From IMG/VR virus record IMGVR_UViG_3300035698_019127: a stretch of 10,660 nucleotides of DNA. One strand, written 5' to 3'. Position 1 is the stretch's first letter. Each line of letters opens with the position of its first letter. The notes beneath the pieces were generated by a model. The model worked only from the letters and a program-made list of their open reading frames with translations, was not told where the DNA came from and did not search any database. Position numbers and translations under genes: made by a program. Source of the DNA: a virus. This document shows positions 8,035 through 8,643 of this stretch, in pieces.

Positions 8035-8613
8035 ATGTTCTATGGCTGCCGCATCCCCTGCAAATACCTCGTCACTTCCGGCATCGGACAGTCCAGCGCA
8101 CAGGCAGGTGCTGACCACTTCGAGACCTCCGCATATGACATCGCCCTTCTCGATGCTGGGATCGAGAACTTCAACATCATGATCTACACGAGCGTCCTCC
8201 CCCCGGAGTCCAGTCGGATCACCATGGAAGATGCCAAGGCACAAGAGCTGTTCCACCACGGGGCGGTCCTGGAGACGATCAAGGCAGAGCTGGACGGTGT
8301 GAAGGGGGAATACCTCTGCACGGGTGTGGGCACCTGCCATGTTCGGGAGTACCAGGAGATGGACGGAAGCTACATCCTCATCGGGGGCTTCGCCGCCGAG
8401 TACGAGGGCAACTCCTCAGAGGAGTACGCTGCCAAGGTGCTCCACAAAGACCTTGAGGGGATCTTCGCCCGACGCTATGGGGATGACCCTCACTACGAAA
8501 TGGTCGACGTGGACATCAACACCCGGGCCTTTGTCGTGGATGAGGACTACGGGGTGTGCTTCACAGCCCTGTGCTTCCTGACCTACAAAATCCCCGCTGT
8601 GATCGGGCCGTAG
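8035..8613 (+). CDS. Pyruvoyl-dependent arginine decarboxylase (PvlArgDC family) homolog, 192 aa
   Basis: Aligns by eye with M. jannaschii PvlArgDC: LVTSGIG...[27 protein letters not shown] versus [53 protein letters not shown] versus MEYEGKCSKKEAEK. C-terminal [13 protein letters not shown] versus GCAFAAAALWYK. The predicted self-cleavage site is Thr-Ser (YTS|VLPP), as in chlamydial AaxB. Confidence 0.8.
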   Translation: [192 protein letters not shown]

Positions 8614-8643
8614 GTTTCAACCACACCGATCCCGCGTAGTAGG
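8612..8643 (+). promoter_or_regulatory. Bipartite conserved intergenic motif, copy B: AGGTTTCAACC-N9-CCGCGTAGTAGG
   Basis: Overlaps the TAG stop of the decarboxylase gene (tAGGTTTCAACC). The 9-nt spacer length is identical to copy A. It ends 5 nt before the AGGAG and ATG of rtcB. Confidence 0.4.

What the first reader, a model, noticed from the sequence alone, without database searches (positions are those of the whole stretch)
8612..8643. Second copy of the bipartite motif overlaps the decarboxylase stop codon and precedes rtcB
This is recorded separately because copy B begins inside the TAG stop of the PvlArgDC gene (tAGGTTTCAACC). The element is therefore constrained both by a coding stop and by the downstream RBS 5 nt away. 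That is an extremely compact arrangement, arguing the element is functional rather than neutral. Its placement immediately before rtcB mirrors copy A before the M50 protease. These two genes may be co-regulated through this element.
Basis: seen in the sequence. Interest (0 to 1): 0.5.

Follow-up and report, generated by a model that had tools for sequence, protein, structure and literature searches.

The report
Repeated phage promoter-like intergenic motif
The 32-base sequence between the arginine decarboxylase gene and rtcB is one copy of a two-part motif that sits just upstream of many unrelated genes in a few uncultivated large phages; it is most likely a phage-specific promoter, a real but ordinary kind of element.

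Summary
AGGTTTCAACC-N9-CCGCGTAGTAGG lies at 8612-8643 and starts inside the TAG stop (8611-8613) of the PvlArgDC gene. It ends 4-6 nt before the rtcB Shine-Dalgarno sequence. An identical copy (1419-1450) precedes the M50 peptidase gene. None is expected by chance.

I found 17 distinct copies in the window, two viral contigs and four metagenome contigs. All have a 9-nt spacer. All are intergenic, co-oriented with the next gene, and end 12-26 nt (once 62) before its start. The downstream proteins are unrelated. No RNA structure or covariation is present.

Three copies precede small genes lying opposite to or diverging from their neighbours. In one, only 36 nt lie upstream. The motif is therefore most likely the promoter itself.

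Its geometry (GTTTCA-N14-GCGTAG) best fits SigB/SigF-type promoters, but one near-invariant G is a C. No sigma or polymerase gene was found in the sequence sampled.

The stop-codon overlap recurs (6 of 17 copies) but is incidental. A relative with 74% identical PvlArgDC keeps a diverged motif at the same junction, with the stop 7 nt upstream.

Verdict: a real regulatory element, probably a phage promoter class. It is a new member of a known kind, of modest interest. No transcription data were available.

The parts
8035..8613 (+). Pyruvoyl-dependent arginine decarboxylase gene; its TAG stop (8611-8613) overlaps the first two bases of motif copy B
   Evidence: PF01862, E=8.7e-23
8612..8622 (+). 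Copy B, left block AGGTTTCAACC (-35-like; core GTTTCA 8614-8619)
8623..8631 (+). Copy B, 9-nt spacer of variable sequence (acaccgatc); the length is fixed in all 17 copies
8632..8643 (+). Copy B, right block CCGCGTAGTAGG (-10-like; GCGTAGTA invariant)
8648..8653 (+). Shine-Dalgarno GAGGAG of rtcB, 6 nt before the ATG; the inferred transcription start lies about 8646-8649
   Evidence: the start-site position is an inference only
8660..10063 (+). rtcB (RNA 3'-phosphate ligase) gene, downstream of copy B
   Evidence: PF01139, E=4.8e-91
1419..1450 (+). Copy A of the same motif (AGGTTTCAACC cgtccactt CCGCGTAGTAGG), identical in all 23 specified bases
1454..1458 (+). Shine-Dalgarno GGAGG of the M50 peptidase gene
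1464..2204 (+). M50-family peptidase gene (TTG 1464 is the likely start; GTG 1452 is the first possible start)
888..1412 (+). Upstream ORF whose TAG stop (1410-1412) lies 6 nt before copy A

Best explanation
The element is a phage-specific promoter. It is a DNA signal with a -35-like block (GGTTTCAA) and a -10-like block (GCGTAGTAGG) held exactly 9 nt apart, with block centres about two helical turns apart. An RNA polymerase holoenzyme carrying a dedicated sigma factor or an equivalent specificity factor, phage-encoded or taken from the host, reads these blocks. Transcription would start a few bases after the right block, in the semi-conserved GGTGAA, giving a very short leader that begins at or just before the Shine-Dalgarno sequence. 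Copy B would then be an internal promoter that drives rtcB and the genes after it, independently of the PvlArgDC gene whose stop codon it overlaps. Copy A would do the same for the M50 peptidase / HNH / tRNA-Met block. Shown: the conservation, the fixed spacing, the orientation, the position relative to genes, and the absence of RNA structure. Inferred: that it binds RNA polymerase, which factor reads it, and where transcription starts.
For: (1) There are 17 distinct copies in the window, in IMGVR_UViG_3300035698_006802 (10 copies in the 44.5 kb seen), in 3300035698_010566, in Ga0180432, Ga0180433/434 (one sequence held in two records) and Ga0114919. Every copy has a 9-nt spacer, and G2, TTTCA and GCGTAGTA never change; mismatches fall at block edges. 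(2) All copies lie between genes (or overlap only the upstream stop), on the strand of the next gene. They end 12-26 nt before a start codon with a Shine-Dalgarno sequence, with one copy at 62 nt, so the element is separable from the RBS. (3) The downstream proteins are unrelated apart from one paralogous pair, and the sequence upstream of the motif is not conserved. (4) In L060 the copy precedes a lone 144-aa gene on the opposite strand between a ribonucleotide reductase gene and a RecD2 helicase gene; codon-position GC supports the small gene. In L048 the copy precedes a 75-aa gene divergent from a 222-aa gene, with only 36 nt between the motif and the divergent ATG. In L002 the first of three copies abuts a divergent 1358-aa ORF. 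These genes need a promoter of their own, and the motif is the only conserved candidate. (5) No RNA fold: z-scores are near 0 on both strands, and the consensus structure of 16 copies is -0.96 kcal/mol with no covariation. There is no Rfam match and no terminator shape. (6) The two blocks are unlike each other, as expected for two different recognition modules of one factor. (7) GTTT-N16-GCGTA matches 8 of 9 bases of the M. smegmatis SigF consensus GTTT-N(14-19)-GGGTA (PMC4694148). It also fits GTTTAA-N12-14-GGG(A/T)A(A/T) of B. subtilis SigB (PMC8346170). (8) At the orthologous PvlArgDC-rtcB junction of a relative (74% identical PvlArgDC), GGTTTC and CGTAG..GG survive at the same spacing while the rest has changed. 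A second variant lies before a divergent gene in that relative.
Against: No transcript 5' ends or any other expression data were available. No sigma factor or RNA polymerase domain was found in 60 ORFs from the motif-bearing contigs or in the window; less than half of the main contig could be read. The -10-like block fits no known class fully: TAGTAG lacks the final T of sigma-70 promoters, and GCG replaces the near-invariant GGG of SigB/SigF promoters. The inferred start leaves leaders of only about 8-15 nt in the most compact copies, with the Shine-Dalgarno sequence at the very 5' end. Most copies sit between tightly packed co-directional genes, where a promoter is not strictly needed. Copies were found by searching for the motif, so part of the apparent invariance is circular.
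Confidence: 0.6

Rival explanations
1. It is a binding site for a phage transcription regulator rather than for RNA polymerase. Either an operator that blocks elongating polymerase at gene junctions, like the 'stoperators' of mycobacteriophage L5, or an activator box that works with a separate core promoter.
For: The sites are asymmetric, lie in one orientation relative to transcription, sit in very short intergenic gaps and often touch the upstream stop codon. This resembles L5 stoperators (own knowledge). Cro/C1-type HTH and MarR/NrtR-type winged-helix proteins are encoded on the motif-bearing contigs.
Against: The two blocks are unlike each other and 9 nt apart, which does not suit a homodimeric regulator. 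Copies in front of opposite-strand or divergent genes have nothing upstream to stop, and in L048 leave 36 nt for any other promoter. Nothing outside the motif is conserved that could serve as the core promoter.
Confidence: 0.2
2. It acts in the mRNA. It could be a recognition sequence for a translational repressor, an endoribonuclease processing site in polycistronic transcripts, or a translation enhancer placed just 5' of the ribosome-binding site.
For: It always lies on the sense strand immediately upstream of a Shine-Dalgarno sequence and start codon. The downstream GGTGA could pair with the 3' end of 16S rRNA (own knowledge of the anti-SD sequence). RNA-repair genes (RtcB, an RNA-ligase-like protein) are in the window.
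Against: There is no conserved structure or covariation and no Rfam match. The distance to the Shine-Dalgarno sequence and start varies from 12 to 62 nt. In the L048 and L002 divergent cases the element would have to be transcribed from a promoter for which the intergenic region has little or no room. A fixed-length spacer of free sequence fits double-helix geometry better than single-stranded RNA recognition.
Confidence: 0.1
3. It is mainly a recombination or mobility signal: the boundary of small gene cassettes that move between phage genomes. It could be a target of a site-specific enzyme or a patch of homology, like the promoter-stem-loop cassettes described for T4-type phages.
For: The same 32 nt, and often the same leader (GGAGACACCC-ATG), stand in front of unrelated small genes in phages that share no proteins in the regions compared. 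Some of these genes look like insertions between conserved replication genes.
Against: There are no terminal inverted repeats, no flanking duplications and no recombinase association. The strict orientation and position relative to start codons point to expression. This reading does not exclude the promoter reading, since a shared promoter can also act as a recombination patch.
Confidence: 0.07
4. It is a chance or neutral repeat.
For: None beyond the small number of copies (two) in the window itself.
Against: 0.00 matches are expected in shuffles. There are 17 copies in several genomes, all in the same context. Patterns with the spacer one base too long gave only isolated matches, which did not lie before a Shine-Dalgarno sequence and start codon.
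Confidence: 0.01

Closest known systems
SigB / SigF-type (group 3 sigma-70 family) promoters: B. subtilis SigB GTTTAA-N12-14-GGG(A/T)A(A/T); M. smegmatis SigF GTTT-N(14-19)-GGGTA
   Same: Two-block layout. The -35-like core GTTTCA matches GTTTAA at 5 of 6 bases. The 14-nt gap between hexamers equals N16 in the GTTT...GGGTA notation, the commonest SigF spacing in the table. The -10-like block has G at positions 1 and 3, and T-A at positions 4 and 5 (PMC8346170, PMC4694148).
   Different: The second base of the -10 triplet is an invariant C (GCG), where GGG is almost invariant in that class. The conserved blocks are much longer (11-12 nt). No SigB/SigF-like gene was found, and the host is unknown. 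I compared about fifteen sigma consensus sequences from memory, so an 8-of-9 match to one of them is only weakly significant (my rough estimate is about 0.06).
Phage middle or late promoter classes read by host polymerase with a phage-made sigma or co-activator (T4 MotA-box middle promoters; SPO1 gp28 and gp33/34 promoters) - own knowledge
   Same: A phage-wide, highly conserved two-part signal unlike the host housekeeping consensus, repeated in front of many unrelated genes. Jumbo phages with a T4-like core lack their own polymerase but encode sigma factors (PMC7824862).
   Different: The sequence is unrelated to any of these. The reading factor is unidentified, and membership of the T4-like jumbo group rests on a single 457-aa protein 37-40% identical to proteins of Agrobacterium phage Atu_ph07 and Salicola phage SCTP-2.
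Mycobacteriophage L5 stoperators - own knowledge
   Same: Asymmetric repeated sites in short intergenic gaps, one orientation relative to transcription, often touching stop or start codons.
   Different: Stoperators are single 13-14 bp sites bound by the repressor. This element has two unlike blocks with a fixed spacer, and it also stands before genes that have no co-directional gene upstream.
Start-associated sequences of cluster K mycobacteriophages, and promoter-stem-loop mobile cassettes of T4-type phages - own knowledge
   Same: Conserved short sequences immediately upstream of the start codons of a subset of genes. The regulatory cassettes are shared between genomes in front of unrelated small genes.
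   Different: Start-associated sequences include the ribosome-binding site and lie 3-8 bp from the start; here the distance varies and the Shine-Dalgarno sequence is separate. No stem-loop accompanies the motif.

Membership tests
Housekeeping sigma-70 promoter | -35 TTGACA and -10 TATAAT, 16-18 nt apart, with A at position 2 and T at position 6 of the -10 hexamer | tested here: not met
   The consensus scan did not call either copy. The best placement is TTTCAA-N16-TAGTAG, 3 of 6 in each hexamer, with G in place of the final T, invariant in 16 of 17 copies.
SigB/SigF-type promoter | GTTT in the -35 region | tested here: met
   TTT (positions 4-6) is invariant in 17 of 17 copies and G3 in 16 of 17.
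SigB/SigF-type promoter | Spacing: 12-14 nt between hexamers, or GTTT-N14-19-GGGTA | tested here: met
   GTTTCA (3-8), N14, GCGTAG (23-28); this equals GTTT-N16-GCGTA in all 17 copies (PMC8346170, PMC4694148).
SigB/SigF-type promoter | GGG almost invariant at the first three -10 positions, and A at the fifth | tested here: not met
   The triplet is GCG in all 17 copies; A at the fifth position is present. Variants in the relative L070 have CGG and CCG.
SigB/SigF-type promoter | A cognate group 3 sigma factor in the phage or host | tested here: inconclusive
   No sigma domain was found in the window or in 60 ORFs of motif-bearing contigs, but most of those genomes were not available. The host is unknown because the one genome scan was mis-specified.
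ECF sigma promoter | AAC in the -35 region and CGT in the -10 region, about 16-17 nt apart (own knowledge) | tested here: not met
   AAC (8-10) and CGT (24-26) are present in most copies but are only 13 nt apart.
T7-like single-subunit polymerase promoter | One contiguous conserved block of about 17-23 bp (-17 to +6), and a phage RNA polymerase gene (own knowledge) | tested here: not met
   Two blocks are split by 9 free bases. The 868-aa ORF next to one copy is a CobT/VWA-like protein, not a polymerase.
Intrinsic terminator | G+C-rich hairpin followed by a T run | tested here: not met
   Not called at either copy. Folding z-scores are 0.04 and -0.12.
Structured cis-regulatory RNA | Conserved secondary structure with covariation, or a match to a described family | tested here: not met
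   Consensus fold is -0.96 kcal/mol with 3 pairs and no compensatory change. Rfam finds only the tRNA.
L5-type stoperator | Single asymmetric 13-14 bp site bound by the phage repressor, oriented with transcription, inside transcription units | tested here: inconclusive
   Orientation and intergenic position fit. The two-block form and the copies before opposite-strand genes do not. Repressor binding is not testable here.
Promoter (functional definition) | A primary transcript 5' end a few bases downstream | not testable with these tools
   No transcript data are available.

The most novel reading that the evidence does not exclude
The motif is the promoter class of an unidentified specificity factor: a phage-encoded sigma, or a hijacked SigB/SigF-like host sigma. 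This factor sets a transcription programme shared by a small clade of uncultivated large or jumbo phages. The roughly 45-nt 'stop - promoter - Shine-Dalgarno - start' unit travels between these genomes as a portable expression cassette for inserted genes, including RNA-repair genes such as rtcB.
Probability: 0.2. Interest if true: 0.5.

Novelty: new member of a known kind. Interest (0 to 1): 0.3.

Why it matters
If the motif is a promoter, it gives a ready-made map of one class of transcription units in a group of uncultivated large phages. These phages carry unusual cargo: a vault-protein-like gene, RtcB, an RNA-ligase-like gene, arginine decarboxylase and a tRNA. The motif can be searched for directly, both to find further members of the group and to find the factor that reads it. 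It would show that rtcB and the M50 peptidase block are switched on together, separately from the genes upstream. It does not change how phage transcription is understood, because conserved phage-specific promoter families are common.

Tried and rejected
(1) Two collection scans used a pattern with the spacer one base too long. This was my error. Their hits (L014-L047) are isolated matches in unrelated sequence that do not lie before a Shine-Dalgarno sequence and start codon. They serve only as an off-register control.

(2) Megablast of the whole window against phage records found nothing.

(3) I looked for the source contig by exact protein. Only two short ENA contigs identical to the window turned up. 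RtcB, the vault-like protein, the 457-aa protein and the 84-aa protein are not on record.

(4) Relatives of RtcB in viral contigs (about 30% identity, L003-L007) lack the motif. Relatives of the 457-aa protein were not found.

(5) Huge-phage records that share the vault-like gene (LR756500/1) have 24-32% G+C, no motif and no other shared gene.

(6) The 436-kb contig with a 63% identical PvlArgDC (L065) has no motif in 20 kb, and a different gene follows PvlArgDC.

(7) A literature search for the motif sequence returned only primers and unrelated hits.

(8) An archaeal-virus reading (TATA-like TTTCAA about 27 nt before the start) was considered. It is set aside as less likely. The tRNA encodes its CCA end, and the reductase and the 457-aa protein have bacterial-phage relatives. 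It is not excluded.

(9) The ECF, T7-like and sigma-54 (no conserved GG-N10-GC; read) promoter models, and the terminator and riboswitch readings, were rejected; see the membership rows.

(10) The 31-nt, 71% inverted match between 2984-3014 and copy B involves spacer bases not shared by other copies, so I judged it to be chance.

(11) No further degenerate copies exist in the window.

Full report
**The observation.** The sequence is as described. ORF 8035-8613 is a pyruvoyl-dependent arginine decarboxylase (PvlArgDC; Pfam E=8.7e-23) and ends in TAG at 8611-8613. The motif runs AGGTTTCAACC (8612-8622), acaccgatc (8623-8631), CCGCGTAGTAGG (8632-8643). Its first two bases are therefore the last two of the stop codon. 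GAGGAG follows at 8648-8653, and the rtcB ATG is at 8660 (RtcB Pfam E=4.8e-91).

The second copy is at 1419-1450, 6 nt after the TAG of ORF 888-1412. It is followed by GGAGG (1454-1458) and a TTG at 1464 that opens the M50 peptidase gene. All 23 specified bases are identical in the two copies, while the 9-nt spacers differ. Allowing three mismatches, only these two sites match, and 200 shuffles gave none. The halves do not resemble each other in either orientation.

**Copies elsewhere.** The window has no close relative among deposited phages. Exact and relaxed pattern scans found the motif in two IMG/VR contigs from one metagenome and in four JGI metagenome contigs. Local mismatch scans of the fetched DNA found weaker copies that the patterns had missed.

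In all there are 17 distinct copies:
- 2 in the window
- 10 in the 44.5 kb I could read of the 98.7-kb contig IMGVR_UViG_3300035698_006802
- 1 in 3300035698_010566
- 1 in Ga0180432
- 2 in Ga0180433/434 (the same sequence, held in two records)
- 1 in Ga0114919

The spacer is 9 nt in every copy. G2, TTTCA (4-8), C21 and GCGTAGTA (23-30) never vary. Changes fall at positions 1, 10, 11, 22 and 32. The six bases after the motif tend to be GGTGAA, and nothing upstream is conserved.

Part of this invariance is circular, because the scans fixed those bases. However, five copies were found with a mismatch-tolerant scan and still keep the same core. An eighteenth site in L011, with only GTTTCA left of the left block, turned up later.

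Two scans had the spacer one base too long through my own error. They returned only isolated matches that did not lie before a Shine-Dalgarno sequence and start codon. They are useful only as an off-register control. The error cost the single scan of bacterial and archaeal genomes, so the host question is open.

**Context of the copies.** Every copy lies between genes, or overlaps only the upstream stop, on the strand of the gene that follows. Each ends 12-26 nt before a start codon preceded by a Shine-Dalgarno sequence. In one copy the distance is 62 nt.

The 16 downstream proteins are unrelated to each other apart from one paralogous pair. They include RtcB, an M50 peptidase, a CobS-like AAA protein, a DUF6011 protein and small proteins of unknown function. 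The window proteins have no relatives in the two regions of the main motif-bearing contig that had been fetched when I compared them (L001 and L002). The motif is therefore a portable signal, not part of a duplicated gene.

**Not an RNA structure or a terminator.** Both window copies fold no better than shuffled sequence on either strand (z between -0.41 and 0.07). The consensus fold of 16 copies is -0.96 kcal/mol, with three pairs and no compensatory change. Rfam matches only the tRNA. The terminator scan does not call either site.

**Why a promoter.** Three copies stand in front of genes that cannot be transcribed from their neighbours.
- **L060.** The motif precedes a 144-aa gene on the opposite strand, lodged between a class II ribonucleotide reductase gene and a RecD2 helicase gene. 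Its codon-position G+C (0.62/0.46/0.80) matches confirmed genes, while the overlapping ORF on the other strand does not.
- **L048.** The motif precedes a 75-aa gene divergent from a 222-aa gene that has its own Shine-Dalgarno sequence. Only 36 nt lie between the motif and that divergent ATG.
- **L002.** The first of three consecutive copies abuts the earliest possible start of a divergent 1358-aa ORF. Each of the three small genes that follow has its own copy.

These genes need a promoter, and the motif is the only conserved sequence available. Two unlike blocks at a fixed distance, with centres about 20 bp apart, fit one protein with two different DNA-reading parts, as in a sigma factor. They do not fit a symmetric regulator.

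**Which promoter class.** The motif is not a housekeeping sigma-70 promoter. The best placement, TTTCAA-N16-TAGTAG, has G where the essential final T should be. The window does hold a good canonical sigma-70-like site, TTGATA-N18-TATATT with an upstream TG, at 10528-10557. This suggests that the motif represents a separate class.

The ECF layout fails on spacing, since AAC and CGT are 13 nt apart. A T7-like promoter fails because the conserved sequence is split into two blocks.

The best fit is the SigB/SigF type. The published consensus sequences are GTTTAA-N12-14-GGG(A/T)A(A/T) in B. subtilis (PMC8346170) and GTTT-N(14-19)-GGGTA in M. smegmatis (PMC4694148). The motif reads GTTTCA-N14-GCGTAG, that is GTTT-N16-GCGTA, which matches 8 of 9 bases at the commonest spacing. 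The mismatch is the middle G of a triplet reported as almost invariant, so I do not file the motif as a member of that class. Given the number of consensus sequences I compared from memory, I rate the match as a lead only.

No sigma or polymerase domain was found in the window or in 60 ORFs of the motif-bearing contigs. Jumbo phages with a T4-like core are reported to lack a polymerase but to encode sigma factors (PMC7824862). The only link of this window to that group is a 457-aa protein 37-40% identical to proteins of Agrobacterium phage Atu_ph07 and Salicola phage SCTP-2.

**The same junction in relatives.** A search with PvlArgDC found relatives on other contigs. In L070/L071 (74% identical protein) rtcB again follows PvlArgDC. 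There the intergenic sequence is TAG-GTCGGGG-GGGTTTCCGTG-cccccaga-ATCCGTAGAGGG-ggcaAGGAG...ATG. GGTTTC and CGTAG..GG are kept at the same spacing, 10 of 23 motif bases differ, and the stop lies 7 nt upstream of the motif. A second variant (TGGTTTCAAGG-N9-GTCGGTAGTCGG) precedes a divergent gene on the other side of PvlArgDC.

The signal at this junction is therefore old. Its exact wording appears to differ between phage lineages, as would be expected if it co-evolves with its reader. This rests on only two variant sites in one relative. A 436-kb contig with a 63% identical PvlArgDC has a different downstream gene and no motif in 20 kb.

**The stop-codon overlap.** In 6 of 17 copies the upstream gene ends in a TAG fused to or abutting the 5' edge of the motif. 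Three of these are in exactly the register of copy B. Against this, T before the motif is present in only 7 of 17 copies. Other copies have TGA, TAA or TAG 9-18 nt upstream, and the ortholog in L070 has no overlap. The overlap is tight packing that the AGG edge happens to allow. It is not a defining constraint.

**Rivals.**
- **Regulator binding site.** An operator like the L5 stoperators, or an activator box, fits the orientation and junction position. It does not fit the unlike halves or the copies before opposite-strand genes. Confidence 0.2.
- **mRNA-level signal.** This fits the sense-strand position next to the ribosome-binding site. It does not fit the lack of structure, the variable distance to the start, or the lack of room for another promoter in the divergent cases. 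Confidence 0.1.
- **Pure recombination signal.** This is possible as a side effect of shared promoter sequence but has no specific support. Confidence 0.07.
- **Chance.** Excluded.

**Verdict.** The element is real and functional. Most likely (0.6) it is a promoter class specific to a small group of uncultivated large phages. On this reading copy B is an internal promoter for rtcB, and copy A is its twin for the M50 peptidase block. It is a new member of a known kind of element, and the interest is modest. No transcription data were available, the reading factor is unidentified, and the host is unknown.

Noticed in passing
window 3136-5691 (+): An 851-aa protein has a major-vault-protein shoulder domain (Pfam E=2.1e-25) and a vault repeat. 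It is about 40% identical to unannotated ORFs in metagenomic huge-phage records LR756500 (462 kb) and LR756501/3 (735 kb), which share nothing else with the window and have 24-32% G+C.
   Followed up: partly
window 6427-6453 and 8014-8033 (+): A second repeated intergenic element, GTCTC(TC)ACAGGAGA(C/T), forms a hairpin that buries the Shine-Dalgarno sequence just before the starts of the 457-aa gene and the PvlArgDC gene. The first is very stable (-26.3 kcal/mol, z -5.8). The second is weaker (z -1.5) and was also called terminator-like.
   Followed up: partly
window 10528-10557 (+): The best canonical sigma-70-like site in the window (TTGATA-N18-TATATT with an upstream TG, 10 of 12) lies in an A+T-richer non-coding stretch at the right end. 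It may be a host-type promoter of a different class from the motif.
   Followed up: no
window 2197-2892 (+): The HNH endonuclease ORF (2197-2883) overlaps the 5' 68 nt of a tRNA-Met (CAT) gene (2816-2892) that encodes its own CCA end. A 243-nt non-coding stretch follows before the vault-like gene.
   Followed up: no
window 5689-5703 (+): Directly after the TAG stop of the vault-like gene comes AGGTTTCCATT, which resembles the left block of the motif (8 of 11) in the same stop-adjacent position. No right block follows 9 nt later.
   Followed up: no
window 5791-6402, 8660-10063, 2816-2892: An RNA-ligase-like protein (weak Pfam hit; PHROG 'RNA ligase' E=8e-7), RtcB and a tRNA lie within 8 kb, which suggests a tRNA/RNA repair module.
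   Followed up: no
L065 (Ga0180434_10000001, 436 kb), 5984, 13046, 19647: A jumbo-phage contig carrying a 63% identical PvlArgDC has G-rich -10-like sequences (GGGGTAGTAT, GGGGTAGGAT, GGGTAGTAG) just before several start codons. One is so close to the start that the transcript would be leaderless. No GTTTCA lies upstream of them.
   Followed up: partly
L048 908-3469 (+); L065 95-3016 (+): Relatives carry genes with LAGLIDADG endonuclease domains, and L065 also has an intein-splicing domain. These are a DNA methylase gene in L048 and a DnaB helicase gene in L065.
   Followed up: no
window 2984-3014 versus 8621-8651: A 31-nt stretch downstream of the tRNA is 71% complementary to the spacer, the right block and the leader of copy B. 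The match relies on spacer bases not shared by other copies, so it is probably chance.
   Followed up: partly
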